Shown: positions 554 through 16,609, numbered from the stretch's first letter. The stretch: DNA of 20,000 bases from an uncultured virus (IMG/VR IMGVR_UViG_3300030101_004109) (IMGVR_UViG_3300030101_004109), one strand, 5' to 3'. The notes: generated by a model not told the origin, from the sequence alone. Made by a program: numbers and translations.

Positions 554-627
554 CGCCCCGGATAGGGATCGAACCTATGACATTCGGCTTAGAAGGCCGA
601 TGCTCTATCCAACTGAGCTACCGAGGC
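554..627 (-). tRNA. tRNA-Arg(UCU), CCA not encoded
   Basis: GCCTCGG/CCGGGGC acceptor, TCGGC-CT-TCT-AA-GCCGA anticodon arm, ATAGG-TTCGATC-CCTAT T arm. Confidence 0.95.
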
Positions 628-636
628 AAAAAGGTA

Positions 637-887
637 GCACACTTTAACCGGTGTGCCAGCGATGTTCTTCCATCCACCCCGTAGAACATCACAGAGGACT
701 GAGATCGAGGGATCAGTCTTATGACAGGTATTTGACTGGCACCATTTTTCAGTCTACAGGTTAACTAAAAAACAGGGTATTACTTTTACATCATACCCCA
801 AAAGAGGGGCACACTTTAACCGGTGTGCCAGCGGCTTTGGCTGCTAACCCCCTATCCCCCAGGAGCCACCCCGCAAGGTTAGCAGCC
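637..887 (-). ncRNA. Candidate structured RNA region with two copies of a hairpin plus an identical 25-nt motif (637-661, 809-833)
   Basis: Exact repeat CGCTGGCACACCGGTTAAAGTGTGC, each copy preceded by a different-sequence hairpin whose loop contains CGGGGTGG; three more hairpins lie between the copies. Confidence 0.55.
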
Positions 888-1921: not shown

Positions 1922-2845
1922 TTAAAAAACATTTTCTTTGTTGTACTCCGTAATATATTTCAAGTAGTTATCTGCTGTGGCTTCCATTGATTGTGTTGGG
2001 TCATCTTCAATAAAGATTTTGTAACCCCCGTCTCGGGCAGCTCTCCAGTCTGCCAAATCTCCAGTAGCGTCTTCTTCAATCTTTGTCAATAGTGTTTCCC
2101 ATTGTTGTTTTGTGTAAGGGCCTCCAAAATCAGTGTGGATTAGTGTTGACAGGTGAGTCTCAATAAAGGCTTGAATAACTTGATGGTCGGTAGGTTCCTG
2201 ATAAGTATCTCCACCATCCCAATCAACGGCTTGACTAAGTTGGAAGTAATCGGTCTCACCGTCAATGTCCATATCATTCTTACTCAATACTTCATCCATA
2301 CGTTCGATGAAGTATTCGAAGTTTTGCTCTGATTCGACTTCCAAGTAACAATCAACGTGGTAGTCATTCATTTCATGGTAAATATGTTCTTCGCCACGAG
2401 GGTCGATCGGCTCGCCACAATGGTCACAGATAGGAGCGCACTTTGTGCATAGGGTGTCGCCGTCTACCTCATGAAACTCGGCGTCATACCGGCTCCGGCT
2501 CCAATGGTTTCGGGCGAGGGGTGTGCCGTAGGATTCACCGATAGCCTCAGTCTTTTCTGCCAGGGCGCGAGTAATCCCGTCTTTCCACTGTTGGTAAGTA
2601 AAGTCGTCAACATTAGCGGTAATCGCGACTTCACAGTGAGCGCACTTTTCAAAAACAATAGAGGCGTCGTCAATCGCGCCAGGGTCGTACCCATGGTCGG
2701 CGTCGGTCTCAGGATGATAGCCGGAGCAGGAAGGGCACCCCTTGCCGCTCAGAATGGCGCCAGCTTCGCCGGGGGATACATCCCCATGGTAGAGGCCGTA
2801 TCGGTCCCAGGGCTCATTACAGACGGTGCAGTTAATGTCAGGCAT
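1922..2845 (-). CDS. Hypothetical Cys/His-rich protein with several CxxC motifs, probable zinc binding, acidic C-terminal half
   Basis: CTVC, CPSC, CAHC, CTKC, CDHC, HVDC motifs; start after TTGGAGAGT. Confidence 0.85.
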   Translation of the reverse strand: MPDINCTVCNEPWDRYGLYHGDVSPGEAGAILSGKGCPSCSGYHPETDADHGYDPGAIDDASIVFEKCAHCEVAITANVDDFTYQQWKDGITRALAEKTEAIGESYGTPLARNHWSRSRYDAEFHEVDGDTLCTKCAPICDHCGEPIDPRGEEHIYHEMNDYHVDCYLEVESEQNFEYFIERMDEVLSKNDMDIDGETDYFQLSQAVDWDGGDTYQEPTDHQVIQAFIETHLSTLIHTDFGGPYTKQQWETLLTKIEEDATGDLADWRAARDGGYKIFIEDDPTQSMEATADNYLKYITEYNKENVF

Positions 2846-2931
2846 TGTACTCTCCAAGGTTAATGTTGATTCTCTCATTCAATGACAATCTACAATGTTT
2901 ACTCCAGATTGTCAAGGAAAAAGTTAATCAA

Positions 2932-3141
2932 TTACACGTTCCTCATTACTGTAATACAGGCTGTCTTAGAAACGGTTAGCCCAATAAGGTCGGCCAGAAG
3001 CTCCCCATGTAGATCATGAAATGCTACAGCCCCTTTCTTAATGCCATGTAGCCGCTTGCATCGACGGGCTACGTTGTAAAGGTATTCATCATTGATTACA
3101 TGTCGGGTTGCTTCGTCGTGAATCCAAGGGGTATCAGACAT
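2932..3141 (-). CDS. Hypothetical protein (69 aa)
   Basis: ORF track; start MSDTP after TTGGAGA. Confidence 0.75.
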   Translation of the reverse strand: MSDTPWIHDEATRHVINDEYLYNVARRCKRLHGIKKGAVAFHDLHGELLADLIGLTVSKTACITVMRNV

Positions 3142-3195
3142 TTTCAATCTCCAATTCTTTAATGGGCAGCCACCCCTTCCAACCATCATCGGCTT

Positions 3196-3459
3196 CTACA
3201 CCAGTGTCGGTGTGTGTCGGTGTGTGAATCAGGAACGGGGGCTCTCGGCGATGCGTCGCCAGTAGTGCCACTCAAAGGTATCCAAGTCGAATTCCTGGCA
3301 GATCCAATCGCAGTGCGGGTGCCGTTCCCCGTCGGCAAGATTGTGGATGGTTTGCACAAGTTCAGACCCTCGACTGAAACCGGAGAGGGATCGTTCGGTG
3401 CGAACGAACGTGCCAAGTGGAAGTTTGACGGAACAAGGCATGTCGGTGTCTCCACTACA
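3196..3459 (-). mobile_element. Putative small inserted cassette flanked by 5-bp direct repeats, with subterminal ACACCGACA repeats
   Basis: TGTAG duplication; ACACCGACA at 3441-3449, 3215-3223 and 3205-3213. Confidence 0.55.
3229..3441 (-). CDS. Hypothetical protein (70 aa, MPCSVKLPLG...) carried by the insertion
   Basis: GGAG RBS 8 nt before ATG; the ORF fills the insertion. Confidence 0.6.
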   Translation of the reverse strand: MPCSVKLPLGTFVRTERSLSGFSRGSELVQTIHNLADGERHPHCDWICQEFDLDTFEWHYWRRIAESPRS

Positions 3460-3570
3460 TGTAGCCACTTTTCCCCGGAAGGGTCAAAAGCGCATGGTTG
3501 GGGCGGCTTAGTTGCTACAAAGTTACTATGCTCTCTTAGCCTGTTTTTTGTTCGGCTGCAAGCAAAATGT

Positions 3571-3831
3571 TTAGCTTTTAACTCCAGTCTCATTTTCAAT
3601 CTCCTGCACAATAATAGACTGACTGAGGGTTTCTCGGTATTCTTCTACATACTGTTCTACCAAATCGTCAATCTCTTCTTCTTCGATGATACCATCGGCG
3701 GCTTGCGCCTCAAAGTAATCGACTACGTTAGCCTCTACATCAATACTTTCAAGGAACTCAACCAATAGCTCATGCAAGGTACAGGCGTCAATGACATTGT
3801 TGTCGATAGGGTCGCTTGTGATTCTAAGCAT
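3571..3831 (-). CDS. Very acidic hypothetical protein (86 aa)
   Basis: ORF track, TTGGAGAGG RBS; 24 D/E versus 3 K/R. Confidence 0.8.
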   Translation of the reverse strand: MLRITSDPIDNNVIDACTLHELLVEFLESIDVEANVVDYFEAQAADGIIEEEEIDDLVEQYVEEYRETLSQSIIVQEIENETGVKS

Positions 3832-4109
3832 TATGCCTCTCCAATGTTTTCAAATCCAAATGGCGACGGACTAAACCAGATAGCCACACCATGATTAAAA
3901 TTGTCCTGTTCAATCTGGGAAGGCTCGAAGAACCCTTCCGGCATCTTTACAATAACACGTAGTAGATTACTGTCAAGGTATTCGGCTTGGATTTCTAATC
4001 CGTGGTCGGGAAACCACGAGCAATCTTTAGCAGCCTTGACAATAGACATCAAAGCATGTCGATGGCCGCATGAATCCGGGGCAGACAGTACAGCATACAA
4101 GTCTTTCAT
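3831..4109 (-). CDS. Hypothetical protein
   Basis: ORF track, TTGGAGAG RBS, TAATG overlap with the next gene. Confidence 0.8.
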   Translation of the reverse strand: MKDLYAVLSAPDSCGHRHALMSIVKAAKDCSWFPDHGLEIQAEYLDSNLLRVIVKMPEGFFEPSQIEQDNFNHGVAIWFSPSPFGFENIGEA

Positions 4110-4192
4110 TCTCTCTCCAATGGTGAATGGTTGGCTATCTCATTCAATGCCACAATAACCGGTTACAATCATTGTGGCAAGGAAAGAGTTAA

Positions 4193-4924
4193 TCAACCGG
4201 TAAGTCGTCGGGTGTTTGATGCTCCCGATACTCCCTTGTTCAGTCTAACACGTTGACCGGCTTTGTATCCGGCAGACGAATGACTTGCCGACTTGTGCCG
4301 TGCCTTTCCAAAGGAATAGTTATCTGAAACCCACTTGTCAACCTGATTCTTACGGTTGACCATCAACGCGAACCCTTCCGGATTTTCTACGGGTTCCGTC
4401 TTCTTCATTTCTCGAAGCTTAGCCCGTAGCCCTTGTACTGCCGATTGACGGAACTCAGCGCCCAATGTTTTACCGTGCTTATGGCGGTCTTCCCAGTCGG
4501 GATTCTTACAATAACGCTTTGCGGCTTTGTCAATCTGATTGGCGACTACAGTGTAAAGATAGACTGCAATCTCACAATCTGACTTATAGCCGTAGTAGTT
4601 AAATACATTGGTACCTGTGTTTTGAGCGCCCTTGATGTCAAGGTAATAGGCGATGGAAAAGGCAAGGCCACGTTTCCATTGTTGGGTTTTCTGACCGCTG
4701 TAACGGCGCTTAGATTCGTCGATGGACAATTCATTCTTTACGAACGATACCGTCATTTTGACAAGGGGGTCCGAGGGTCGATCCGATTCGGCCAACTGCT
4801 GTTCGGTCACCGCATGTTCCGTCATAAGACGGCGAGCCATACGCATGGCTTGTTCGGATTCGTTGCCCTCGCTACCATCGGCAAGGCGCAGAAGTTTTTG
4901 GATTCGTTCAATGATCTTAGACAT
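4193..4924 (-). CDS. DUF2786-domain protein
   Basis: N-terminal KIIERIQKLLRLA...NESEQAMRMARRLMTEH matches the DUF2786 pattern; C-terminal AGYKAG...L typical of these proteins. Confidence 0.85.
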   Translation of the reverse strand: MSKIIERIQKLLRLADGSEGNESEQAMRMARRLMTEHAVTEQQLAESDRPSDPLVKMTVSFVKNELSIDESKRRYSGQKTQQWKRGLAFSIAYYLDIKGAQNTGTNVFNYYGYKSDCEIAVYLYTVVANQIDKAAKRYCKNPDWEDRHKHGKTLGAEFRQSAVQGLRAKLREMKKTEPVENPEGFALMVNRKNQVDKWVSDNYSFGKARHKSASHSSAGYKAGQRVRLNKGVSGASNTRRLTG

Positions 4925-4928
4925 AGTG

Positions 4929-5249
4929 TCACTCTCCAGTTTTAATAGCTACCCACGTAGCAAGGTATCCAAGGTTGCCGCATTTTTCGTAAGGACCATC
5001 ACTAAGGACCCATGTTCCGTCCCATACTCCATCATGGGGCTTATTCGTTTCGATGTATGTTGTCAAGTATTCTCTAAGGGCATCAATATGGTCTCCCGTA
5101 TTGACCCGCATTGTCATAAAGACATCGCCTTTGAACCCCAGAGACGGGCTTCGGTCTGCCCGCTGGACCCGATAAAAGCTGTTACCGTTTCGGTCTACCC
5201 GTAGTTTGATTGTAATGGAAGGTACGGTGCTATCTGCAATCTGAATCAT
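4929..5249 (-). CDS. Hypothetical protein
   Basis: ORF track, TTGGAGAGTGAAGCATG start; shares Y(R/K)VQRAD with 7998-8333. Confidence 0.8.
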   Translation of the reverse strand: MIQIADSTVPSITIKLRVDRNGNSFYRVQRADRSPSLGFKGDVFMTMRVNTGDHIDALREYLTTYIETNKPHDGVWDGTWVLSDGPYEKCGNLGYLATWVAIKTGE

Positions 5250-5252
5250 GCT

Positions 5253-5450
5253 TCACTCTCCAATGGTAATTATTTTCCAACCAACTTGCGCGTCGTCTTC
5301 CGCTACACTGTAGACTACATCATCCTTGTACCACACACCAAATTCTGTATGGTCAAACGATTCCCATTCACCTGAATCGTTATGCAAAAGGGTAAGACTA
5401 TGATTAGTCAGAATCTTTCTATGCCCCCTTTTCTCAAGGATTATTTTCAT
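5253..5450 (-). CDS. Hypothetical protein
   Basis: ORF track, TTGGAGAGTGAAGCATG start. Confidence 0.8.
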   Translation of the reverse strand: MKIILEKRGHRKILTNHSLTLLHNDSGEWESFDHTEFGVWYKDDVVYSVAEDDAQVGWKIITIGE

Positions 5451-5537
5451 GCTTCACTCTCCAATGTTAATGTTGACTGACTATCTCATTCACTGACACT
5501 ATAACATCCTAAGCTATAGTGTCAAGGAAAAAGTTAA

Positions 5538-5714
5538 TCAGATTAGTCCGAGGATGATTAGCCACGATGGACTACCATCGGGACCATAACCATCGGGTTC
5601 TACTGTGTAACCCGTTACGGATTCACACACCGAATCATATACCCATGCTTCGATTTCTTCCATCGACGGGGTTTCGTATTCTTCACCATTCCAAGTAACA
5701 GTAGATGGAAACAT
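5538..5714 (-). CDS. Small acidic phage hypothetical protein (VEPDG...SWLIILGLI)
   Basis: ORF track; TTGGAGT RBS. Confidence 0.8.
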   Translation of the reverse strand: MFPSTVTWNGEEYETPSMEEIEAWVYDSVCESVTGYTVEPDGYGPDGSPSWLIILGLI

Positions 5715-5733
5715 ATCATACTCCAAAGGTTAA

Positions 5734-6075
5734 TCAACCGAAAACAATCTTACCATAGCAGGCTACCTGCACAATAACATCTGCATCTTCAGCGTCAATA
5801 TCTGCGCCTTCCATTGTACGGTAAACTTCTGCCCAAAACTTTTGGCCTCGGCTGGTCTGTACCTTTCCCTCCTTTAGCTTACATAGCGCCGATGCAATAG
5901 CATCATTGTCAATCAATGTCCAGGGTTCTTCCGGGTCTTCGCAGTCACGGACCATGGCCGTAACATTGTTTTCATCGGCGTGGTTATAGTTACGGACTGA
6001 GGCCCACGGGGTACCCCCTTCAATAGCTGTAATAGTAATGCCGCTGTAAAATTGGTTTCGTTGGTTGCTACGCAT
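5734..6075 (-). CDS. Phage hypothetical protein (AIEGG...W; DIDAEDADVIVQ...GKIVFG)
   Basis: ORF track; start after TTGGAGAGTG. Confidence 0.8.
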   Translation of the reverse strand: MRSNQRNQFYSGITITAIEGGTPWASVRNYNHADENNVTAMVRDCEDPEEPWTLIDNDAIASALCKLKEGKVQTSRGQKFWAEVYRTMEGADIDAEDADVIVQVACYGKIVFG

Positions 6076-6162
6076 CTTTTCACTCTCCAAGGTTAGCGTA
6101 ATAATCTCTTCATTCATTGACACAGTAACTTACTACAACCACTGTGTCAAGGAAAAAATAGA

Positions 6163-6414
6163 TTATTCTGTTTTTACTCCTGCATCAAGTGCTTTGCTAC
6201 TCATTTTAGCCAATGCAACCTTAATCTCTTTAAGCGTTGCCCTAAGCTCAATCACTTCCGGGTGTTGGGTGTCGGAGGTATCACCGCCGGTCCAATGGGC
6301 GGAAAAACCCATACCATTAGCGAGACGGTCAGACACGGCCGTTAGAAGGGCGGACGCTCTACTAATGTCGTCCGCAACAGAAAACCATTGTTCGGTGGTA
6401 GGGTTAACTTGCAT
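6163..6414 (-). CDS. Hypothetical protein, helical or coiled-coil
   Basis: ORF track; TTGGAGAGTGATATG. Confidence 0.8.
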   Translation of the reverse strand: MQVNPTTEQWFSVADDISRASALLTAVSDRLANGMGFSAHWTGGDTSDTQHPEVIELRATLKEIKVALAKMSSKALDAGVKTE

Positions 6415-6415
6415 A

Positions 6416-6685
6416 TCACTCTCCAAAGATAATGTCACATACTTTCTGGTATTTTTCCAATGTCATATAGGGCCAACGATCAACAATGATTCTACGATTT
6501 AGAACTTTATTGGCGTTATCCATAACTCCCCCAACCGTTTCGTGCTTACTGGGAAAGCGCGTCATCCAATAAATCTCACTGATTGTCCAGCCCGACATCT
6601 GACGACGGCGTACAAAAGCTCGGACAGGATCATACCGCATAGATTGTAGAACTTCGGTTCGGTGGTCGGGGTACTTAATAGACAT
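6416..6685 (-). CDS. Hypothetical protein
   Basis: ORF track; TTGGAGAGTGATATG. Confidence 0.8.
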   Translation of the reverse strand: MSIKYPDHRTEVLQSMRYDPVRAFVRRRQMSGWTISEIYWMTRFPSKHETVGGVMDNANKVLNRRIIVDRWPYMTLEKYQKVCDIIFGE

Positions 6686-6726
6686 ATCACTCTCCAATGT
6701 CTTTGTCAAACAAGTCAACGTAATCG

Positions 6727-6829
6727 TGGGGATAGCGGGAATCGAACCCGCGCTAATGCGTGTTAGCTTTGCCGAGCTTTTCACTACTTAGCCTGCCCAA
6801 CCCCGGCAAGGGTTATGTACAATATCCCC
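6727..6829 (-). ncRNA. tRNA-like RNA (103 nt): perfect acceptor stem and T arm, no canonical D or anticodon arm
   Basis: GGGGATA/TATCCCC-A acceptor; GCGGG-TTCGATT-CCCGC T arm; GCTAA/TTAGC variable-like arm; putative promoter upstream. Confidence 0.75.
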
Positions 6830-6861
6830 GTAAATCTTTCCAATAAAGTCAATGGAAGCCA

Positions 6862-6902
6862 TCTTACACTCTACCCTTAATGGAGTGTGTTTGTATTGTC
6901 AA
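6862..6902 (-). promoter_or_regulatory. Putative promoter TTGACA-N17-TAAGGG-TAGAGTGTAAGA upstream of the tRNA-like RNA
   Basis: Perfect -35; shares motif with 1748-1787. Confidence 0.5.
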
Positions 6903-6954
6903 GGACAAAATGTAAGATGGGCTCGATTGACCCTACTAAAAGGGTCGTCAAAGA

Positions 6955-7374
6955 TTAGACTGCGATCGGGGCAGCCATACGGTCTACCAGATAACATGCG
7001 AGGGTTTTCTTATTGTTTACCTCAATCCACACACCATCATGGTCTCGGCACAAATGCCACGTACCGTCCCGGCGGTTACCTTCCAGTAGCTGTAGCAACC
7101 CCTCATAGGTTGGCGCGGTATCATAGAAGCCGCCGCTACAGACCGCCGTGTTTAGGGTGCGCTCGCTATGGCGGAGATCGTAGGCCCATCGGGTGAGCGC
7201 TCCCCGTCGATTGCACTGGGCGATGACATAGCCGGTATAGGCGATGTCATAGCGGTCCCCGGTCCATGTTGCACGGGGTTTGATTGACGCCGCGAGTAGC
7301 GTGTGATTATTATATTCAACGGTTTTGGTTAGGGACGTAAAGCATTGAACGGGGGAAGGAAAAGTAATAGGCAT
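6955..7374 (-). CDS. Hypothetical protein
   Basis: ORF track; TTGGAGTGA RBS. Confidence 0.8.
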   Translation of the reverse strand: MPITFPSPVQCFTSLTKTVEYNNHTLLAASIKPRATWTGDRYDIAYTGYVIAQCNRRGALTRWAYDLRHSERTLNTAVCSGGFYDTAPTYEGLLQLLEGNRRDGTWHLCRDHDGVWIEVNNKKTLACYLVDRMAAPIAV

Positions 7375-7392
7375 GGGTCACTCCAATGTTAA

Positions 7393-7641
7393 TCAGCTAA
7401 CAATGTTTTCGGAAAAGTCAAAGCCCTTTCTACAGATGTAACATGTTCCGTTGTTACTGTACCTTGTACAGTAGACCCGATACCACCGTTCCCGACCGTC
7501 GGCACCCGCGGCCTTTACCTTTTTGAAGGTTGGGATCTTTCGGCCGTAGCCGGATGCTGTGTAGCTTAGGCCCTTTAGCTGCCACGGCAAGGGGTCGACA
7601 ATGAATGGGACGGGGCCGGACTTCATATCAAGGTATTGCAT
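7393..7641 (-). CDS. Phage hypothetical protein (TASGYGRKIPT...RVYC...SNNGTCYI)
   Basis: ORF track; TTGGAGAGT RBS. Confidence 0.8.
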   Translation of the reverse strand: MQYLDMKSGPVPFIVDPLPWQLKGLSYTASGYGRKIPTFKKVKAAGADGRERWYRVYCTRYSNNGTCYICRKGFDFSENIVS

Positions 7642-7714
7642 GTTACTCTCCAATGGTTAACAGGTTCATTCGATGACACTATAACATTCTACACTATAGT
7701 GTCAAGGAAAGAAT

Positions 7715-7996
7715 CTATCTACATTTGTTGAGTCCCGTAACGTAACCTTTCATAAAGGCATTAATCATATAGTATAGCTCACGCTTAGAGGTAAAGCCGG
7801 TTAGCTCGTGGGTTCCTCTCGCGTCGTTGTCGATACGTTCGAGCCGCACGTTTCCGGCATTGTGCCCGATAACGTAGGTACCAATGTTGTAGTGGCGAAC
7901 GCCGTCACTCTCTCGACTGTACTCATAGGGGCTCTCCCCCGTAAGCTCGTTAAGGTTGTGTAGCTTTTGGTCCAGAATCTTTTGTGTCACTCGCAT
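7715..7996 (-). CDS. Hypothetical protein
   Basis: ORF track; TTGGAGAGTGATATG. Confidence 0.8.
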   Translation of the reverse strand: MRVTQKILDQKLHNLNELTGESPYEYSRESDGVRHYNIGTYVIGHNAGNVRLERIDNDARGTHELTGFTSKRELYYMINAFMKGYVTGLNKCR

Positions 7997-7997
7997 A

Positions 7998-8333
7998 TCA
8001 CTCTCCAATGGTTACAATTCGGGTTTCGTCGATTAGGGTAAAAACTGTAACGTCTTCACTAAGAAAGGCCCGTACCCATTGACCGAACCACGATTTGTCG
8101 ATCATACCTTCCGATACTTGGGTGAGGTACAGATACAGCGCATACTCTTTACTATCTGTAAAGGGCAACGGTTCTAACCCTTTACGCTCCCTATCGCGCT
8201 GTAGATAATGGAAAGAATCGCGCTGGATTGTGATCGGCTTCCACCGATCGGTGTCCCTTCCCCCTTTGTAGTCGGCCCGCTGGACTTTGTAGCGATCGAA
8301 CCCCTTATACTTTACTGTAATAGCACATGCCAT
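7998..8333 (-). CDS. Hypothetical protein, possible distant paralog of 4929-5249
   Basis: ORF track; TTGGAGAGTG RBS; IT(V/I)K...Y(K/R)VQRAD shared. Confidence 0.8.
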   Translation of the reverse strand: MACAITVKYKGFDRYKVQRADYKGGRDTDRWKPITIQRDSFHYLQRDRERKGLEPLPFTDSKEYALYLYLTQVSEGMIDKSWFGQWVRAFLSEDVTVFTLIDETRIVTIGE

Positions 8334-8410
8334 GTTTCACTCTCCAATGGTAATCGTTGTTTCATTCATTGACACAGTAACAGATAGTGGTCACTATGTC
8401 AAGGAAAGAA

Positions 8411-8674
8411 TCAAGGATAAATAGGACGGGGCTCTCCAATACTCAACCATTGACTGCCACATTCAGGGTCGTTAATACAATCCTGATCGAAGATACCGCC
8501 CATGTATTCAAACAAATCGTCAAGGCATTCCTGATAGCCCACCATATTGCGGGCTACGTTGACATACCATTCACGGGCCAATGGCATATAGTATTCTTTC
8601 GTTCGGTAGTCGAGCAGGAAAGGGTTTTCTTCCAGCATCTTGCTAACAGCACTAAGAAAATCGTCAAGCGACAT
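8411..8674 (-). CDS. Hypothetical protein
   Basis: ORF track; TTGGAGAGT RBS. Confidence 0.75.
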   Translation of the reverse strand: MSLDDFLSAVSKMLEENPFLLDYRTKEYYMPLAREWYVNVARNMVGYQECLDDLFEYMGGIFDQDCINDPECGSQWLSIGEPRPIYP

Positions 8675-8689
8675 TTCTACTCTCCAATA

Positions 8690-9106
8690 TCAGACGTTTA
8701 GACACAATGTCAATAGGACTACGTTACCCTTCTGGCGGGCGGCTCCCGCAAACCATTGACCCCATGCTGCTCGGTTGCGGGAATGCTCGCAATAGTCAAG
8801 CCACCCTTCCATAGCTTCCGACGCTTCCGCTTCCGTTGCATACTTAATCCAGCGGATTTTCCAGTCGCCTTCATCTTTAGAGATACCGTAATCTACGGCT
8901 TCCCAATAGTCAAGGGTTTCTTTTCGATTAGTTTGTTCGTGCTTTGCACGATCTTTCAATTCATCGGCGGCTGCTTTCTGAAAGATAGCAAAGCCAGGAC
9001 CGCTAAACCCTTCCGTGTTTCGGGTATAGTCTCTCAGCACAGATTCGTGCATACGATTTACACGAGATGACAGCTTTTCACCAAGGCACATAGACATATG
9101 TGACAT
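8690..9106 (-). CDS. Hypothetical protein
   Basis: ORF track; TTGGAGAGCG RBS. Confidence 0.8.
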   Translation of the reverse strand: MSHMSMCLGEKLSSRVNRMHESVLRDYTRNTEGFSGPGFAIFQKAAADELKDRAKHEQTNRKETLDYWEAVDYGISKDEGDWKIRWIKYATEAEASEAMEGWLDYCEHSRNRAAWGQWFAGAARQKGNVVLLTLCLNV

Positions 9107-9178
9107 AACGCTCTCCAATGGTAATTGTTTCATTCGATGACACAATAACCGTTAATGACTACTGTGTCAAGGAAAGAA

Positions 9179-9412
9179 TCAGTTAGCCTTTGTTCTAAAT
9201 ACTTCCCGTTGTTTGGTAGTCGGATGGTGACGGTGACGGAATTCGTGTAGCCATTGGAGCCCATAGCGGATGGTTCCCACGTATTGCCATATCTCGCCCG
9301 TTTCGGGGCAACGGCTAACACGATTTCCACCCAACGGGGAACGCTCCAGGGTATCCCAAAGAGCGAACCACGCTTCACGATCTTCGGGGTTAACAAAACG
9401 GATTTCAGACAT
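9179..9412 (-). CDS. Phage hypothetical protein (CPETGEIWQYVGT...HEFRHRHHP)
   Basis: ORF track; TTGGAGAGTG RBS. Confidence 0.8.
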   Translation of the reverse strand: MSEIRFVNPEDREAWFALWDTLERSPLGGNRVSRCPETGEIWQYVGTIRYGLQWLHEFRHRHHPTTKQREVFRTKAN

Positions 9413-9431
9413 AACACTCTCCAATGAAAAG

Positions 9432-9656
9432 TCAAACAATAGGCTGAAAGATATGGGCGGTACCGGTGTATTTCTTTCCACAACACTCACAATAGTGGCG
9501 ACCACCCTTGTCTTCTTCCCGAACATGAATCAAGTAACTTACAGTCTTCAACCATGCAAGGATTAAAGTGTAAGTATTTTCGCAGTCAACGGAAGACCAA
9601 TCGTCATTGACAAGGCCGACCGCACAAGTATGGCAAACATGGAATTCACTTCCCAT
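9432..9656 (-). CDS. Small putative zinc-binding protein (CHTC...CECC)
   Basis: ORF track; TTGGAGCGTG RBS. Confidence 0.8.
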   Translation of the reverse strand: MGSEFHVCHTCAVGLVNDDWSSVDCENTYTLILAWLKTVSYLIHVREEDKGGRHYCECCGKKYTGTAHIFQPIV

Positions 9657-9958: not shown

Positions 9959-10032
9959 ATCACACTCCAATGGTTAATGTTTCACCCTATGACATACTGA
10001 AACCAATATGTCAAGGGGAGAATCATCAAACT

Positions 10033-10948: not shown

Positions 10949-11018
10949 AGTACACTCCAATGGTTCACCCTATGACACACTAATTATAGTATGTCAAGGG
11001 GAGAATCATCCCAGTGTT

Positions 11019-11318
11019 TCAATTGATAGGCACACCAGACGACGAAAACCGATCACCGGTTTTCATATCCACGGTAAAGTGAATACAGCCGCCCCTACAT
11101 TCATCCCACTCAGGATCGTACTCGCCTTTGTAGGTGTAGAAGGCCCACACGCCGTGATATTCGGTATACCCGTCATTGTATGACCAGTACACACTATGGG
11201 AGCCGGGTTCGGTTTCCGTGCTTTCGATTGTAAAATCTTCTACACGACCACACGACCGGGCAAATTGTTCGCAGGTGTAGGCGGTAGCTTCCGACAAAGA
11301 AGGGAAAGGAATAGGCAT
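11019..11318 (-). CDS. Hypothetical protein; N-terminus MPIPFPS resembles MPITFPS of 6955-7374
   Basis: ORF track; GGAGTGTG RBS. Confidence 0.8.
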   Translation of the reverse strand: MPIPFPSLSEATAYTCEQFARSCGRVEDFTIESTETEPGSHSVYWSYNDGYTEYHGVWAFYTYKGEYDPEWDECRGGCIHFTVDMKTGDRFSSSGVPIN

Positions 11319-11640: not shown

Positions 11641-11858
11641 GCCGCTACCGCTTCACCCTTGACGGGCTCCACGGGGTCAGACACGGCGCTCCAGTCGGCG
11701 TCAATGCGAGCCCACGCCCTACCATTGAGACGACGGGCATGGCCCACCCTTTCGCCGGTCGAGAGCAGAACGGGCCCACGACGGGGCGTAGCCCGAATTT
11801 TGGCCCGCAATTCATCAATTCGCTCGTTTGACTTTTCCAAAATTTCTTCGATAGTCAT
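11637..11858 (-). CDS. Hypothetical protein
   Basis: ORF track; TTGGAGTGA RBS. Confidence 0.75.
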   Translation of the reverse strand: MTIEEILEKSNERIDELRAKIRATPRRGPVLLSTGERVGHARRLNGRAWARIDADWSAVSDPVEPVKGEAVAA

Positions 11859-11931
11859 AACAGATCACTCCAATCGAAACCCTAATGTTTCGTCAAAAGC
11901 CACAGACATAGCTATGGCTAATGATGAATCA

Positions 11932-12126
11932 TTACGATCCAGACGGGTACACAAGCTCCATAAGAGCCAAAACCGCTTCCCGGTTTTCGGGCGTATCCTT
12001 TCCAAGGTCCCGCAATTCGAGCACTACACACGATTGCCGGTAAAAGGTATCATCGTCGGGCGTCAAGTCCCGCCCGATACCATGGACAATAAGCGTTAGA
12101 ACCAACAAGGCATCTTTCGTATCCAT
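11932..12126 (-). CDS. Hypothetical protein, first gene of the leftward array
   Basis: ORF track; TTGGAGTGTG RBS. Confidence 0.75.
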   Translation of the reverse strand: MDTKDALLVLTLIVHGIGRDLTPDDDTFYRQSCVVLELRDLGKDTPENREAVLALMELVYPSGS

Positions 12127-12154
12127 GTCACACACTCCAATTGTGATTGTATGG

Positions 12155-13229
12155 CAAAGGGCGTCGGATAACCCGTAAAACTCTCCAAACAGTGTAGAAA
12201 ATGGGGGACCCGCATACCTTATGGTCCTTCACTGCTCCCCTTTAGGCGGAGCACCATCACACACTAAAAGACTCTCCAAACTATCCGACGCCAGCGGTCA
12301 TACAACCGCAAAACGCACGTTTCAGGCTTTCATACCAACCGATCGCACCGCCAATGATTGTCCGTTTCGGCGTTAGTAAGCACATTTAAGGCATAGGGCA
12401 GTACCTACACCCCGTCCCCTCGGAACGGTTTAGCCAACGCTTTCGTTTCCTTAGTGTATGGACCCCATAGGGGTAACGTCGCCGACTACACAATGGGCAC
12501 GGTGCCTTTGTCCACATACAGCCGATCAAACTTAGCTGTATCACCTCTCCCCGATAAATCGGGGGCCACCTAACGACGTTTTAATTCATTGACGCTTCGA
12601 ATCGGTCCGAAACGCTGAGCACTCGTTACCACCGTGCGCCGCTGTCGACGCATGCCGGGTAGGTGCTTTCACCAGATCCCCCGATCACTTGCTCCGTCGA
12701 GGGCACGCTTCCCGGTCCGCTTACAAGGCTTTCAGGGTTGCGTAGCTGTAGCGCCGAATGCGCTACCAATGATGTAAAAGAGATCGTCGCTTTCGCGCCG
12801 TAGCTCCTCAGACCGCTCCTAATGAATTGTGATTTTAGCATATAGAGATCCCACTACTTCCCCGCTTGTCACGGCTATGATCTCGAAAGATCGGGGTCTG
12901 CTTTAACTCCGCTAATACCTTCCCAAGGATGCCGCGTACCATCGGTCAGGGTAGACCGATGCGCAATTTGACGTATCCGATTGACGTCCCCCGCCGCTTT
13001 CCCCGCATACACGGGTTCCACATTAGGTTTTTCGATAAGGGTGCCGGGGCACCGCTGTAGCGTTGATGGGTGGCTGTCCTACTATTACCGTCGTCCATCA
13101 ATCGCTCCCACTATCGGGGCGTCTCTCTTAGCCGTCAAGGCTTCCAAGGGTGGTTCGGGACAAGCCCGAACCGGAACACAAAACATATTCACGATTTTAA
13201 AGAGCGTCGAGATTTTCATCTCGCCCCCC
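12155..13229 (-). ncRNA. Candidate large (~1.07 kb) highly structured non-coding RNA or leader
   Basis: No credible ORF; more than 15 hairpins, GAAA and UUCG tetraloops, G-U pairs favouring the minus strand, long-range stems and a possible pseudoknot. Confidence 0.7.
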
Positions 13230-13230
13230 G

Positions 13231-13268
13231 CTACTAAGAAGTCCGGGGGTTTCCGTCAAGGGAAAAAA
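13231..13268 (-). promoter_or_regulatory. Putative sigma70-type promoter TTTTTTCCC-TTGACG-N17-TAGTAG
   Basis: Same T-tract-CC-TTGAC context as the repeat promoters; -10 imperfect. Confidence 0.5.
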
Positions 13269-14310
13269 TTCATTTTCCCTTTTCGGCCGTTTCCCTATTC
13301 GGGTCACGGGTCGTTCGGGTTTGTTCGCGTTGCGGCGTTCAGCCCTTCCGACAAATGGCAAGTAACGGATTGCGGGCGACTGTGTAGGCGAAACAAAAAT
13401 TAGTAATTAATAGTTGAGAATTCCCATGGTTAGGGTCTTCTCGGCGATCTCCCCAATTGTGTGCTAAGTGTAAAGTTTGGTGAGAATAGGCTGCTGATCG
13501 GGCTTATCGGCAAATGTCAACCAAATGTAAAGGAATCGAGAAAGGCCAAATTAAATTCTCTATTGTCGAGAATCCCCATGGATACAGGGTTTTCGTCAAT
13601 CGGTGCGGCTTGGGGCGGTCCGGGCGTGCCTGGATCGGCGGGGCTGAATCGGTGAGAATCCCCTATCCATCGACATTCTCGGCTAATTTGGGGGGCCAAT
13701 TCTTTTTTTGCCTATATAACGTGTCGGAATATTGGCGAGAATCCCCTATCCATGGGGCTTCTGGTGCTGTTTCGGCTGCTATCCGTTAGCCGCTGATATG
13801 GTGAAGATTCTTCAAAACGCTTTATTGGTGGGCATTCTCGCCGATTCTGCCGGGCTTATTCAATAAGGGGCCAATTGGATGGCACCTCCTGGTTTTCGTT
13901 GAAGATGTTTCAAAACGCTTTATTGGTGGGCATTCTCGGTTTTCCCTGCCACCTTGAAAATTCTTTTAAAACGCCCACGGTCAGGGCGTTTTGGGCCATT
14001 CTGCCACCTATGGCCAGTTTTGACCCCCTATGACCTCAGATCCTTATGGGAATTCTTCACTTTCAATTAGACCCCTCTAATTGATAAGGGGATGGTTTTC
14101 TATATGGGAGGGATTCTATAGGGTAGGGGATAAGAGAGTCTGTACATAGTTTGTTGCCCATGGTTAGGGCGTTTTGAAAGAATTACCATAATGGTTGGGG
14201 AAATTTTAAAAGTTGAGAATGCCGATGATCAGGGCGTTCTGAAAGACCTTCTATGACGTGTCAACACTTTGTGTACAGGGTTTGTCCGGGGTTTGTTCCG
14301 GCCGGCTCCC

Positions 14311-14327
14311 ATGCAATTTCCGTGCCA
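14311..14327 (-). promoter_or_regulatory. Sigma54 (RpoN) -24/-12 consensus TGGCACGGAAATTGCAT
   Basis: Exact match to TGGCACG-N4-TTGCW. Confidence 0.7.
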
Positions 14328-14381
14328 TGTCTGGGTTTTATTTCGAACGTTCGTTACGTACCGGGGGTCTCCTGGCCAGAT

Positions 14382-14412
14382 AAAAGAAAACCCCCGCCGT
14401 TAAGCGGGGGTT
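14382..14412 (-). terminator. Rho-independent terminator
   Basis: AACCCCCGC-TTAACG-GCGGGGGTT followed by TTCTTTT, just downstream of CDS 14445-14759. Confidence 0.8.
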
Positions 14413-14444
14413 AAGAGCCGAGAAGGCCCACTGTCAGGGCGTTT

Positions 14445-14759
14445 TCAGTCGCAGTCGCGGACCGGGTAGACAGTGATCGTCATATAGAGAGGGCTCTCCA
14501 CACTTGTTCCGATATGTTCAGCCGAAACACTGACAATAAGGGCTTTTTCGGCGTAGTCAATCGCCCACTTTTCCGCTTGGGCTTTCCAAGCGTCGTCGAT
14601 TGTTTCGCCCTCCCCAATTGTGTCCTTATCCACCCATACCAATTCATCGACGTCCATAGGGTGCGGCATAATGACCCCTTCACAGCCCCAATAGTCGCGC
14701 CATTCGGCGAAAGTTACGGTGTCAAGGGCATTCCGAACGGTTGTCAATTGTGGTTGCAT
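14445..14759 (-). CDS. Isolated hypothetical acidic protein (104 aa)
   Basis: ORF track; TTGGAGAGT RBS; own terminator. Confidence 0.8.
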   Translation of the reverse strand: MQPQLTTVRNALDTVTFAEWRDYWGCEGVIMPHPMDVDELVWVDKDTIGEGETIDDAWKAQAEKWAIDYAEKALIVSVSAEHIGTSVESPLYMTITVYPVRDCD

Positions 14760-14860
14760 AATACTACTCTCCAAATGGCCGGGAAGATTAAGTCGGCCGA
14801 ATGGCCGGTAATTGCTTTTAAGGCAAGGGGCAAATTTTAAATTTCCGAAATTATTTTCCT

Positions 14861-14877
14861 ATGCAATTTCCGTGCCA
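14861..14877 (-). promoter_or_regulatory. Sigma54 consensus TGGCACGGAAATTGCAT upstream of CDS 14445-14759
   Basis: 20-bp exact repeat of 14311-14330. Confidence 0.7.
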
Positions 14878-14939
14878 TGTTTCGGGCTTGTCAGGAGAAT
14901 GTCAAAACACTGTTTGAATGTTCAGTGTTTTTCTGTACC

Positions 14940-15174: not shown

Positions 15175-15191
15175 TGGCACGGATCTTGCAT
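15175..15191 (+). promoter_or_regulatory. Sigma54 consensus TGGCACGGATCTTGCAT
   Basis: Exact match to TGGCACG-N4-TTGCW. Confidence 0.7.
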
Positions 15192-15347
15192 AGGAAACGG
15201 GCGCGCTCACATCGGCCCACACCGAACGCTTGTTATGCACCGGTGGCATAGGGGAAACCCCGTATAGGTAGAAACCCCTACCCCGGTGCATCCATAACGA
15301 TCGTTATGCGTTACACATAACAAGTGTTCTGTAACCCCCGCCCAGCC

Positions 15348-15508: not shown

Positions 15509-15537
15509 TTGCCCTGCGCGACCCGATCGGCTACCTT
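15509..15537 (+). promoter_or_regulatory. Putative sigma70-like promoter TTGCCC-N17-TACCTT for the rightward operon
   Basis: Correct spacing, AT-rich upstream region. Confidence 0.4.
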
Positions 15538-15607
15538 ATTGCCGGGTGATGGGGCCCGACCGGCCACATTTTCCTGTCCTTTAATCCCTTCGAGGCCGAT
15601 AAAACCT

Positions 15608-16609
15608 ATGTCTATTCTTTCCATGCTATTTAATAGTTACCCCATGTTGACTCAATCCATGCCTGATGGGCTAACGGCGCCGGTGACGGACGGTTCCGGG
15701 CGATACATGGAAGCAGGGGTGGCGTTGAAGTGTCTTGTATATCCCATTGACGCCGATCCGGCAACGCTACATTTAGTTGGGCTGCGGCTGAACAGCGGCG
15801 GTCAGGGCGTTTCGGCCCCTCCTGCAGCACCGTCGCCCGTCCAAACCCTTCTGTTTGATGTGGATAACGCCACAATAGAAGAAGCAGCACTACCCCTAGT
15901 AACACAAGAAGCCCCTAAAATAGCGCCTCTGGAGACCCCTACCCTTACCCCTCTGGAGCCCTTAGAAGCCCCTTCAGCGGGTGACCAAAATCCCAGTTTT
16001 TCCGATGTGGCCGCTCCCGATCCAGCGCACGACGAAATCCCGGCAGTTTCGATGGAGCCTTATTTAGACCGAGCTTACGCAAAACTTGAAGAGTTGCCTT
16101 GGGTAGAGGGCCTTACTCCTGCGGATGAAGAGGGTTTGTCTCCCCTGGCAGACGCTTACGCACAAGTTAAAAACAAAAGGCTCGTGAACTTCGTGGTGCG
16201 CCTCGGAAACCCCACAACATCAAACACGGGTATTTACTCCGAGTCTCGCATGGGCGGTGCTTACCAGTGCTACGGCGCTATTGTTATCGGTTCCGACCAT
16301 CCCGACAGCAGTTTGATGCCCGATATTGCGACAGGACCGTCTCTCCGCGCCCGCTTGTTTGAGCTGGAAGACGAAACTCCTGTATTCTTCCACGTTATGC
16401 ACCGGGTTGAAGTTGTTAACGCCATCCGTTCTACCGAACTGTTCTCTTCCTTCGCCCGTAGTGTTGCCGCAGAACATCAAGATAGAGTAAACAACAGGGC
16501 CGCTGCAGCAAGAGAGAAAGAAAACGACGAGCTTGGTGCGATCCTTAGCGACCCGAAGATGGTAAAGGCGCTTTTCGCCCGTCTTATGGAAAACGCGGAG
16601 GGTAACTAA
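15608..16609 (+). CDS. Hypothetical protein with Pro/Ala-rich linker (start uncertain)
   Basis: Long ORF, TAATG-coupled to the next gene. Confidence 0.8.
   Translation: MSILSMLFNSYPMLTQSMPDGLTAPVTDGSGRYMEAGVALKCLVYPIDADPATLHLVGLRLNSGGQGVSAPPAAPSPVQTLLFDVDNATIEEAALPLVTQEAPKIAPLETPTLTPLEPLEAPSAGDQNPSFSDVAAPDPAHDEIPAVSMEPYLDRAYAKLEELPWVEGLTPADEEGLSPLADAYAQVKNKRLVNFVVRLGNPTTSNTGIYSESRMGGAYQCYGAIVIGSDHPDSSLMPDIATGPSLRARLFELEDETPVFFHVMHRVEVVNAIRSTELFSSFARSVAAEHQDRVNNRAAAAREKENDELGAILSDPKMVKALFARLMENAEGN

What the first reader, a model, noticed from the sequence alone, without database searches (positions are those of the whole stretch)
12155..13229. Candidate new large (~1.07 kb) ornate non-coding RNA heading the early region
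Seen: in an otherwise gene-dense region, 1.07 kb behind a putative promoter (13231-13259) lacks any RBS-led ORF but is tiled with helices. Examples are CGAGAU-GAAA-AUCUCG (13208-13223), GGUUCGGG/CCCGAACC (13152-13172), CAUCGGUC/GACCGAUG (12940-12961), GAUCU-UUCG-AGAUC (12879-12892), CGC-GAAA-GCG (12788-12797), GUAGCGC/GCGCUAC, CCCCGA/UCGGGG, AUACAGCU/GGCUGUAU and CCGUUCC/GGGACGG. Long-range stems close multibranch domains (12821-28 with 12583-90; 12572-80 with 12475-83; 12282-92 with 12160-70), and 12510-16 with 12457-63 would form a pseudoknot. Tetraloops and G-U pairs favour the minus strand. Short motifs recur (AUCAUUGG...UGAAAGCCU twice, GCGGGGAA twice). Established: phages carry large structured RNAs of unknown function (GOLLD, ROOL) and RNA antiterminators (HK022 put). 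I see no hallmarks of group I/II introns, RNase P or tmRNA. Inference: a new large ncRNA class or a giant cis-acting leader controlling the downstream gene array.
Basis: partly seen in the sequence, partly recalled or inferred. Interest (0 to 1): 0.88.

Follow-up and report, generated by a model that had tools for sequence, protein, structure and literature searches.

The report
Conserved structured RNA leading phage early genes
An uncultured marine phage carries about 1.2 kb of protein-free DNA whose base-pairing pattern is kept in a distant relative, which points to a large folded RNA of a family not yet described, although what it does is still open.

Summary
The ORF-poor stretch is real and is not a known RNA. 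Rfam 15 gives nothing above chance in the window or in its one full-length homologue, metagenome locus L003. That homologue keeps the stretch at 72-82% nucleotide identity, while the neighbouring 366-aa protein is only 51% identical. The differences show no codon periodicity, and the indels are hairpin-sized. Base pairing is conserved far beyond chance. There are 14 double-sided compensatory changes against 4.2±2.0 expected (0 of 2000 permutations) and against 1-3 when partners are slid. Independent folds of the two sequences share 109 of 200/212 pairs on the minus strand (null 15±10) but only 39 on the plus strand. Contigs from two RNA libraries lie on the stretch. The conserved element runs 13355-12146, so the proposed promoter lies among covarying hairpins. 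Only a 5' module (~650 nt) and a 3' hairpin module (~160 nt) are conserved. The middle ~380 nt, which holds several of the listed helices and repeats, is not. The whole-region folding z-score is only -1.3. Whether it is a cis leader or a free RNA is unresolved, and the case rests on two full-length sequences.

The parts
12146..13355 (-). Whole conserved non-coding element (about 1210 nt)
   Evidence: blastn to L003: 12146-12316 at 81.9% and 12670-13355 at 72.5%. Alignment A2. Mismatches by position mod 3 are 122/109/108, and indels are 17, 14, 16, 8, 59, 7, 5, 3, 2 and 1 nt. No Rfam family.
13287..13309 (-). Hairpin P-a (7 bp, GAAUA loop)
   Evidence: 3 of its 7 pairs change on both sides and stay paired (U-A to A-U, C-G to G-C twice). 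It is predicted in both independent folds.
13253..13286 (-).
   Evidence: One G-C to A-U double change and two A-U to G-U changes. Found in both independent folds.
13231..13259 (-). Promoter-like element (TTGACG, 17 nt, TAGTAG)
   Evidence: Shares TTTCCCTTGAC with nine intergenic sigma-70-like elements of the same strand. Its second hexamer ends in G, and the consensus scan did not list it. It is conserved in L003 as TTGACG, 17 nt, TAAAGG.
13225..13249 (-). Hairpin P-c (C-run/G-run stem across the -10-like hexamer)
   Evidence: Both sequences form a hairpin here with different inner pairs and a shifted register. Only 66.7% of cells pair column by column.
13208..13223 (-). Hairpin P-d, CGAGAU-GAAA-AUCUCG
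   Evidence: A-U to G-C compensatory change. The GAAA loop is invariant.
12803..13205 (-). Closed multi-helix domain. The closing helices are 13205-13191 with 12816-12803 and 13186-13177 with 12831-12822.
   Evidence: The same nested architecture appears in independent MFE folds of the window and of L003. The core helices are sequence-invariant, and the peripheral hairpins covary or differ in length. Coordinates.
13152..13172 (-). Hairpin GGUUCGGG/CCCGAACC inside the domain
   Evidence: Two double-sided changes (G-C to U-G and G-C to A-U).
12879..12892 (-). Hairpin GAUCU-UUCG-AGAUC
   Evidence: U-A to C-G compensatory change in L003. The loop differs in L003 and in the RNA-library contig, while the stem is kept.
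12788..12797 (-). Hairpin CGC-GAAA-GCG
   Evidence: Invariant in L003. In the X15 contig, three substitutions and two 1-nt insertions give a 4-bp stem with a GCAA loop (read from tables 3 and 4).
12317..12700 (-). Variable linker, not conserved in sequence
   Evidence: Identity is near 45% with a 59-nt deletion in L003. z is -1.71 in the window and -1.67 in L003.
12146..12306 (-). 3' module: long imperfect hairpin with a three-way tip, ending 5 nt before the GGAG of the first gene
   Evidence: z is -3.92 in the window and -3.67 in L003, with 0 of 200 shuffles as good. 52 consensus pairs, 4 of them changed on both sides. 5 compensatory changes against 1.26 expected (P 0.004), and 6 broken pairs against 15.6 expected.
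11932..12126 (-). First gene of the leftward array (64 aa from the ATG at 12126; listed from the GTG at 12135 as 67 aa)
   Evidence: ORF list. It is unrelated to the gene at the same place in L003, with no BLASTP alignment at E<=100.
13407..14446 (.). Array of 21-35-nt repeats in both orientations directly upstream of the element (context)
   Evidence: Families D1-D4 and inverted pairs I1-I4, I9 and I10. A similar array stands upstream of the element in L003.

Best explanation
Window 13355-12146 (minus strand) is a conserved, non-coding, base-paired RNA element of an uncultured marine phage. It stands at the head of the leftward array of small early-type genes.

It has three parts:
- A ~650-nt 5' module: four hairpins, then a ~400-nt multi-helix domain closed by long-range helices.
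- A ~380-nt variable linker.
- A ~160-nt long imperfect hairpin that ends 5 nt before the ribosome-binding site of the first gene.

Most likely mechanism (inferred). The element is transcribed together with the first genes as a very long structured 5' leader and acts as folded RNA. The invariant core of the 5' module would bind a partner, either RNA polymerase or a phage or host protein, as antitermination-type and decoy RNAs do. The 3' hairpin would serve as a processing or stabilising element of the double-strand-specific (RNase III) kind. Cleavage there would separate a stable ~1-kb structured RNA from the downstream message.

Shown: non-coding conservation, conserved pairing, preference for the minus strand, and presence in RNA-library contigs.

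Inferred: the transcript ends, co-transcription with the genes, any processing, and the partner.
For: Non-coding conservation:
- A relative whose neighbouring 366-aa protein is 51% identical keeps the element at 72-82% nucleotide identity.
- Mismatches fall 122/109/108 by position mod 3, and indels are mostly not multiples of 3.
- No frame open in both sequences shows a codon-position bias.

Pairing is selected:
- On a structure predicted from the window alone, L003's substitutions give 14 compensatory pairs against 4.22±1.97 expected, and 34 broken pairs against 57.6±4.6. None of 2000 permutations reaches either value.
- The reciprocal test gives 16 compensatory pairs against 4.68 expected. 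The 3' module gives 5 against 1.26.
- There are 14 double-sided changes against 1-3 with partners slid by 1-3 columns.
- The consensus energy has z -11.7 against column shuffles.
- Independent folds share 109 of 200/212 pairs, against a null of 15.1±9.6 (maximum 34 in 40 permutations).

Minus strand:
- Shared pairs are 109 on minus against 39 on plus in the 5' module, and 41 against 28 in the 3' module. MFEs are lower on minus.
- Consensus energy is -184 on minus against -157 on plus.

RNA:
- Contigs of metatranscriptome libraries from two samples lie on 13180-13352, 12685-13005 and 12284-12450. One is from a relative under 90% identical that carries the L003-type 17-nt hairpin insert.

Leader reading:
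- No terminator-like site lies on the minus strand within the element.
- The nine sigma-70-like intergenic elements of the array all lie at or below 11020. The first four genes (12126-11019) therefore have none of their own downstream of the element.
- The 3' hairpin abuts the first ribosome-binding site in both phages.
Against: - Only two full-length sequences exist, so no statistically proper covariation test (R-scape type) is possible, and many core helices never vary.
- A strand test on one-sided changes (G-U against A-C outcomes) is inconclusive: 13 against 10 with the window as reference, 15 against 25 with L003.
- In the 3' module, the single-sequence and windowed z-scores are more negative on the plus strand.
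- RNA-library contigs carry no strand, ends or level, and DNA can be present in such libraries.
- No promoter for a start near 13355 was found, and promoter-like sites in the region are at chance level (5 found, 4.2 expected).
- The first gene downstream is unrelated in the two phages. That fits an independent RNA gene at least as well as a leader.
- Four of the 22 listed differences of the X15 contig break pairs of the RNAalifold consensus.
- Nothing here tests RNase III cleavage or any binding partner.
Confidence: 0.5

Rival explanations
1. It is a stand-alone, trans-acting large structured RNA gene, the same kind of thing as GOLLD, ROOL or the ~800-nt ICP1 transcript. It would be made in quantity early in infection and act on its own, for example as an RNA-only assembly, scaffold or decoy, rather than as a leader.
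For: - Sharp conservation boundaries at 13355 and 12146, while the next gene is replaced by an unrelated one.
- An invariant multi-helix core with variable peripheral hairpins.
- Conservation higher than in neighbouring coding DNA: 72-82% against 64-70% to the right.
- Pieces of it are assembled in RNA libraries of two samples.
- Precedent: the most abundant ICP1 transcript is a ~800-nt RNA in a ~1-kb ORF-less gap (PMC7567579, passages read).
Against: - No terminator-like site at its 3' side.
- The first four genes have no promoter-like element of their own.
- The middle third is not conserved.
- Transcript ends and abundance are unknown.
Confidence: 0.3
2. It is a DNA-level element. The conserved hairpins would act in single-stranded or cruciform DNA as part of the replication origin or a packaging site, next to the repeat (iteron-like) array at 13407-14446. 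Alternatively, its transcript would serve as a structured replication primer in the manner of ColE1 RNA II.
For: - The repeat array and an A+T-rich stretch lie directly upstream in both phages.
- Watson-Crick compensation is strand-symmetric, and compensatory counts are also raised on the plus strand (13-14 against 4.6 expected).
- The one-sided-change test does not pick a strand.
Against: - 1.2 kb of nested long-range pairing is far larger than known single-strand initiation signals.
- Independent folds agree much better on one strand: 109 shared pairs against 39.
- G-U pairs sit inside the shared helices (10 cells on minus against 1 on plus).
- Pieces are found in RNA libraries.
- The direction of the gene array leads away from the repeats.
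Confidence: 0.1
3. It is not one RNA but several unrelated short elements that happen to be adjacent. These would be promoter-proximal operator palindromes (P-a to P-c), one or two small RNAs, and a stabilising hairpin for the first gene.
For: - Two conserved blocks are separated by an unconserved 380 nt.
- P-b and P-c overlap a promoter-like element.
- The RNA-library contigs are three separate short pieces.
Against: - Long-range helices join 13205-13177 to 12831-12803 in both independent folds, so at least ~400 nt act as one unit.
- P-a has three compensatory pairs, which a protein-binding palindrome does not need.
Confidence: 0.1

Closest known systems
GOLLD and ROOL RNAs (large ornate RNAs, often in phages and prophages)
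   Same: Large size, no coding capacity, phage location, many hairpins around a conserved multi-helix core, and unknown function. They form RNA-only multimers by cryo-EM (PMC12286853, abstract seen in the listings).
   Different: No sequence or structure match to any Rfam 15 model at E<=10, in the window or in the homologue. It is not next to tRNA genes; those lie about 11.5 kb away. A third of its length is unconserved. It abuts a gene array with no terminator.
The ~800-nt non-coding transcript of Vibrio phage ICP1, and the lncRNAs of phage K
   Same: An ORF-less gap of about 1 kb in a lytic phage gives a long non-coding transcript of unknown role (PMC7567579 and PMC9241854, passages read).
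   Different: Those were defined by RNA-seq abundance, and the passages read report no conserved structure. Here conserved structure is shown, but the transcript is not mapped. No DNA similarity to any GenBank phage record.
HK022 put RNAs and other leader-borne antitermination RNAs (from my own knowledge)
   Same: A structured RNA placed between an early promoter and the early genes, which could act in cis on the transcribing polymerase.
   Different: put is about 70 nt with two stem-loops. This element is about 17 times longer. No terminators to be overcome were identified in the array.
RNase III processing hairpins of phage early transcripts (T7 early region, lambda N leader; from my own knowledge)
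   Same: A long imperfect hairpin just upstream of an early gene's ribosome-binding site, like the 12306-12146 module.
   Different: The module is a ~160-nt branched hairpin. Cleavage was not tested, and the known sites have no 1-kb structured RNA upstream.
ColE1 RNA II (structured replication pre-primer; from my own knowledge)
   Same: A several-hundred-nt RNA whose folding matters, encoded beside an origin-like region.
   Different: ColE1 has no iterons, and RNA II is transcribed towards the origin. Here transcription would lead away from the repeat array.

Membership tests
Any Rfam 15 family (GOLLD, ROOL, OLE, HEARO, raiA, group I and II introns, RNase P, tmRNA, 6S and the rest of the 4227 models) | Match to the family's covariance model at or above its gathering score | tested here: not met
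   At gathering thresholds the window has only three tRNAs at 161-627. With permissive filters on 11800-13700 there are four hits at E 0.82-9.4, all 27-63 bits under their gathering scores. There are 0 hits at E<=10 on the L003 homologue and 0 at gathering thresholds on L001-L003.
Group II intron | Domain V hairpin with the catalytic triad and a bulge, plus a domain VI branch site | tested here: not met
   The only trace is a 16-bit, E 3.6 hit of a plastid D5 model on the 13208-13223 GAAA hairpin. It deletes 9 model positions of the stem. No intron-encoded protein is in the window.
Protein-coding gene in a non-standard genetic code | A long open frame once a stop codon is read as sense, with a matching suppressor tRNA | tested here: not met
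   The longest frames overlapping the stretch are 107 aa (TAG=Q), 140 aa (TGA=W) and 186 aa (TAA=Q), and each needs up to 3 read-throughs. The tRNAs are Lys-UUU, Leu-UAA and Arg-UCU. There is no codon periodicity of substitutions.
GOLLD/ROOL-like large ornate phage RNA (as a kind, not a family) | A discrete, abundant transcript of the whole element | not testable with these tools
   Only contigs of RNA libraries could be laid. They show presence of three pieces but no ends, strand or level.
GOLLD/ROOL-like large ornate phage RNA (as a kind, not a family) | Conserved secondary structure supported by covariation | tested here: met
   14 double-sided changes against 4.2 expected (0 of 2000 permutations) and against 1-3 in slid controls. 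109 pairs are shared by independent folds against a null of 15. Caveat: two sequences only.
HK022 put-type antiterminator RNA | Two-stem-loop RNA just downstream of an early promoter that makes polymerase resistant to terminators | not tested
   The position relative to a promoter-like element is compatible. The size and fold differ.
Iteron-type replication origin | Direct repeats for an initiator next to an A+T-rich unwinding region | tested here: inconclusive
   Repeats at 13407-14446 and an A+T-rich 13370-13420 exist beside the element, not inside it. No initiator gene was identified.

The most novel reading that the evidence does not exclude
This is the founding member of a new class of more than 1 kb of ornate phage RNA from marine viruses. 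It would have an invariant multi-helix core that acts on its own, as a ribozyme, an RNA-only assembly like GOLLD and ROOL, or a decoy that captures a host machine. It would be released from the early transcript by cleavage in its 3' hairpin.
Probability: 0.3. Interest if true: 0.8.

Novelty: new member of a known kind. Interest (0 to 1): 0.62.

Why it matters
Few large structured non-coding RNAs are known outside ribosomes and introns. Several of them (GOLLD, ROOL) are phage-borne, still lack a known function, and were recently found to build RNA-only cages. A further, unrelated phage RNA of about 1.2 kb with a conserved core would add a new subject for structure determination. It occurs in marine samples of several studies and turns up in metatranscriptome libraries. 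Because it sits directly in front of the early genes, it also gives a concrete hypothesis to test: control or processing of the early transcript. The present evidence rests on two full-length sequences, so the main value now is as a well-defined lead.

Tried and rejected
More homologues:
- DNA patterns from five conserved blocks found nothing in viral contigs or genome contigs.
- Protein-guided scans found nothing in viral contigs or genome contigs. One search reported 4 tblastn relatives in viral contigs but returned no locus.
- GenBank phages give no DNA match and no match for two neighbouring proteins.
- The one metagenome scan gave three loci, and only L003 reaches the element.
- No whole genome or record is held for the window or the loci.
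- Earlier findings of this scan: none.

Cover outside the element in the RNA libraries:
- On the 12 kb laid, RNA run X4 has contigs only in 12284-12450 and 13180-13352, and RNA run X15 only in 12685-13005.
- DNA run X3, from the same sample as X4, covers 26 of 30 bins.
- The runs were chosen by this very stretch, and contigs give no levels, so I do not count the empty flanks as evidence of high expression.
- The X4 contig ending at 13352, near the conservation boundary at 13355, is likewise only a coincidence to note.

Other tests that led nowhere:
- Recoding by TAG, TGA or TAA: rejected.
- Conserved small ORFs: rejected on flat codon-position counts. A 12-codon frame in the 3' module is kept in both phages, but one of its changes is compensated by a pairing partner outside the frame, and its ribosome-binding motif is lost in L003.
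- Strand call from one-sided G-U against A-C changes: inconclusive.
- Tetraloop enrichment: not significant. The window has 2 against 1.39 expected (P 0.42), and L003 has 3 against 1.29 (P 0.15).
GCGGGGAA is conserved at both sites and closes two similar small hairpins.
- The GUUUGGAGAG pair in the 3' module resembles the array's ribosome-binding block in the window, but reads GUAGAG and GUAAAG in L003, so a ribosome-site mimic is not supported.

Literature:
- Four searches found no description of this RNA. Subscription journals and supplements were not covered.

Full report
**What is there.** The window looks like part of an uncultured phage. A long leftward array of small genes of unknown function runs from about 12126 down to 1922. 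A rightward block from about 15600 includes a DNA methyltransferase, a dUTPase and an HNH endonuclease (PHROGs; Pfam). Three tRNA genes lie at 161-627. Public runs that hold the stretch are marine or viral metagenomes from 7 studies. No GenBank phage matches the stretch or two neighbouring proteins. Between the two gene blocks, about 3.4 kb is poor in ORFs. Reading TAG, TGA or TAA as sense does not open a convincing gene, and no suppressor tRNA is present.

**Is it a known RNA?** No. Rfam 15 at gathering thresholds finds only the tRNAs. With permissive filters on 11800-13700 there are four hits at E 0.82-9.4, all far under their gathering scores. One is a group II domain-5 model laid on a plain GAAA hairpin. 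The homologous stretch of a relative gives no hit at E<=10.

**Single-sequence folding.** The 1075 nt fold at -396.9 kcal/mol against -382.5±11.2 for 25 dinucleotide shuffles, giving z -1.28. The plus strand gives z -2.08. By parts on the minus strand, the 3' 171 nt reach z -3.92 with 0 of 200 shuffles as good. The 5' 655 nt reach z -2.06 with 1 of 20 as good. The middle 384 nt reach z -1.71.

**A homologue.** The 366-aa protein at 15509-16609 has six relatives in the large protein collection. A metagenome scan with their alignment returned three loci, of which only L003 reaches far enough upstream. L003 is 21 kb of an 80.8-kb contig, and its copy of the protein is 51% identical. blastn aligns window 12146-12316 to L003 6514-6682 at 81.9%, and 12670-13355 to 6970-7657 at 72.5%. 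Neighbouring coding DNA to the right aligns at 64-70%. L003 also has no ORF above 63 aa there.

**The conservation is non-coding.**
- Mismatches fall 122/109/108 by position mod 3.
- Indels are 17, 14, 16, 8, 59, 7, 5, 3, 2 and 1 nt.
- None of the frames open in both sequences (up to 67 codons) shows a third-position excess.
- Several indels are whole hairpins. L003 has an extra GUAGC-UUCG-GCUAU and an extra 17-nt insert, and it lacks the window's GUAGCGC hairpin.

The part from 12317 to 12700 is essentially unalignable.

**Is pairing conserved?** I used tests that do not let the alignment choose the structure.
- *Window-only structure.* I predicted the structure from the window alone and asked how L003's substitutions fall on it, against 2000 permutations that keep the window sequence and the substitution spectrum but move the substitutions. 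In the 5' module there are 14 double-sided changes that keep a pair against 4.22±1.97 expected, and 34 broken pairs against 57.6±4.6. No permutation reaches either value. With L003 as reference there are 16 against 4.68. In the 3' module there are 5 against 1.26 (P 0.004) and 6 broken against 15.6.
- *Slid controls.* The pair-counting tool on the same structure gives 14 double-sided changes, against 1-3 when every partner is slid by 1-3 columns, and 0 of 500 shuffles as high.
- *Independent folds.* Separate MFE folds of the two sequences share 109 of 200 and 212 pairs in alignment coordinates. Permuted versions of L003 at the same divergence share 15.1±9.6, with a maximum of 34 in 40. Ten of the shared pairs changed on both sides. 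These lie in P-a (13309-13287, three pairs), P-b, P-d, the 13152-13172 hairpin (two pairs), 12914/12836, the 12879-12892 hairpin and 12740/12708.
- *Consensus energy.* RNAalifold gives -184 kcal/mol with z -11.7 against column shuffles. That null does not keep dinucleotides.

**A third, partial sequence.** The 381-nt contig of RNA run X15 is under 90% identical and covers 12685-13005. Of its 22 listed differences, 7 keep a pair of the RNAalifold consensus of A3 (recomputed), 11 are unpaired there and 4 break one. Two of the four lie in the CGC-GAAA-GCG hairpin, which RNAalifold had paired elsewhere. Read from the tables, that hairpin becomes a 4-bp stem with a GCAA loop, which supports the local hairpin over the long-range alternative. 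Three G-to-A changes at 12807, 12813 and 12816 would turn G-U into A-U in the closing helix. The partner side lies outside that contig, though, and is assumed unchanged.

**Which strand?**
- Independent folds agree on 109 pairs on the minus strand and 39 on the plus strand in the 5' module, and 41 against 28 in the 3' module. MFEs are equal or lower on minus: L003 5' module -267.5 against -237.8, and 3' module -69 against -58 and -48.
- Against this, a strand-neutral count of one-sided changes giving G-U or A-C is inconclusive.
- Tetraloops are not enriched.
- The 3' module's z-score is more negative on the plus strand.
- I take the minus strand as favoured, not proven.

**Is it RNA?** One RNA library (X4) holds contigs on 12284-12450 and 13180-13352. 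A DNA library of the same sample was also laid. A second RNA library from another sample (X15) holds 12685-13005 from a relative. This shows that sequence of the element is present in RNA libraries. It does not show strand, ends or abundance, and DNA carry-over is possible. The 13180-13352 contig runs straight across the proposed promoter and start site.

**Anatomy (coordinates).**
- P-a: 13309-13287.
- P-b: 13286-13253. Its 3' arm contains TTGACG.
- P-c: 13249-13225. It crosses the -10-like hexamer.
- P-d: 13223-13208.
- A domain closed by 13205-13191 with 12816-12803 and by 13186-13177 with 12831-12822. It contains invariant core helices (13150-13139 with 12933-12922, 13138-13133 with 12973-12968, 13127-13116 with 12991-12979) and peripheral hairpins that covary or change length.
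- The 12797-12788 hairpin.
- The variable linker.
- A long hairpin, 12306-12146, with a three-way tip. Its 12-nt loop AUAAGGUAUGCG is identical in both phages, and its stem changes A-U to G-C.

**The promoter.** It may therefore be a real, weaker promoter. Its second hexamer ends in G, the consensus scan did not list it, and such sites are at chance level in the region. Since P-a, P-b and P-c around it keep their pairing, either the RNA starts further upstream, with no promoter recognisable there, or these hairpins belong to another function. I leave the 5' end open.

**How it may work.** No terminator-like site follows the element. The next intergenic promoter-like element is at 11020, so the first four genes seem to depend on transcription coming through the element. 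The 3' hairpin ends 5 nt before the first ribosome-binding site in both phages, although the first gene itself is unrelated between them. My best reading, at about 0.5, is a very long structured leader that acts as RNA and may be cut in the long 3' hairpin. The stand-alone reading (about 0.3) fits the sharp boundaries, the gene replacement and the invariant core. It has precedents in ICP1 and phage K (passages read). A DNA-level or primer role at an origin beside the repeat array (about 0.1) and a patchwork of small elements (about 0.1) are less likely, for the reasons given under the rival explanations.

**Verdict.** The element is real, conserved, structured and of no known family. Its bounds, unity, transcript and function remain to be shown, and the comparative case rests on two full-length sequences plus fragments.

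Noticed in passing
window 13407-14446: At least nine copies of a 21-35-nt repeat (core GCCCAYGGTYAGGGCGTTTTG, often preceded by GAGAAT) stand in both orientations, together with two 39-nt and two 32-nt repeats. A comparable array stands upstream of the element in L003, and L001 aligns to 13621-14335 at 84%. It looks like an iteron or operator array, with an A+T-rich 13370-13420 beside it.
   Followed up: partly
window 2870-2926, 4135-4191, 5486-5539, 6105-6161, 7666-7719, 8357-8413, 9125-9181, 9976-10027, 10959-11010 (minus strand): Nine intergenic elements read TTCTTTCCTTGACA, 17 nt, TAnnGT, which is a near-consensus sigma-70 promoter. In each, the -35 hexamer and the bases after the -10 form an 8-11-bp palindrome whose inner bases differ between copies but stay complementary. 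Related copies occur in L003.
   Followed up: partly
window 2843-9435 and 12123-12147 (minus strand): A conserved block around the ribosome-binding site, CATTGGAGAGTG followed by ATG, recurs before many genes of the leftward array. Repeat family D2 has nine copies and family D4 has six.
   Followed up: no
window 6726-6751: A 26-nt stretch is 85% identical to the end of the tRNA-Leu gene at 238-263. It lies inside the gene array and is not called as a tRNA by ARAGORN or Rfam. It may be a tRNA remnant or an attachment-type site.
   Followed up: no
window 14307-14335, 14857-14885, 15175-15203: A 23-29-nt motif (ATGCAATTTCCGTGCCA) occurs twice in direct orientation and once inverted. It flanks the small minus-strand gene 14445-14774, which is followed by a strong terminator-like hairpin at 14412-14389.
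   Followed up: no
window 12218-12256 (minus strand); L003 6594-6632: A 12-codon frame (MVLRLKGSS-E/N-GP) inside the 3' hairpin module is open in both phages (read). One of its changes is compensated by a pairing partner outside the frame, and the upstream GGAGAG is lost in L003, so structure explains it better than coding.
   Followed up: partly
window 627-661 and 799-833: A 35-nt direct repeat (89% identical) contains a GCACAC...GTGTGC hairpin and lies next to the tRNA-Arg gene.
   Followed up: no
window 15509-16609: The 366-aa frame probably starts at its Met34. All six relatives begin there and are 331-375 aa long. The family has no Pfam or PHROG match.
   Followed up: partly
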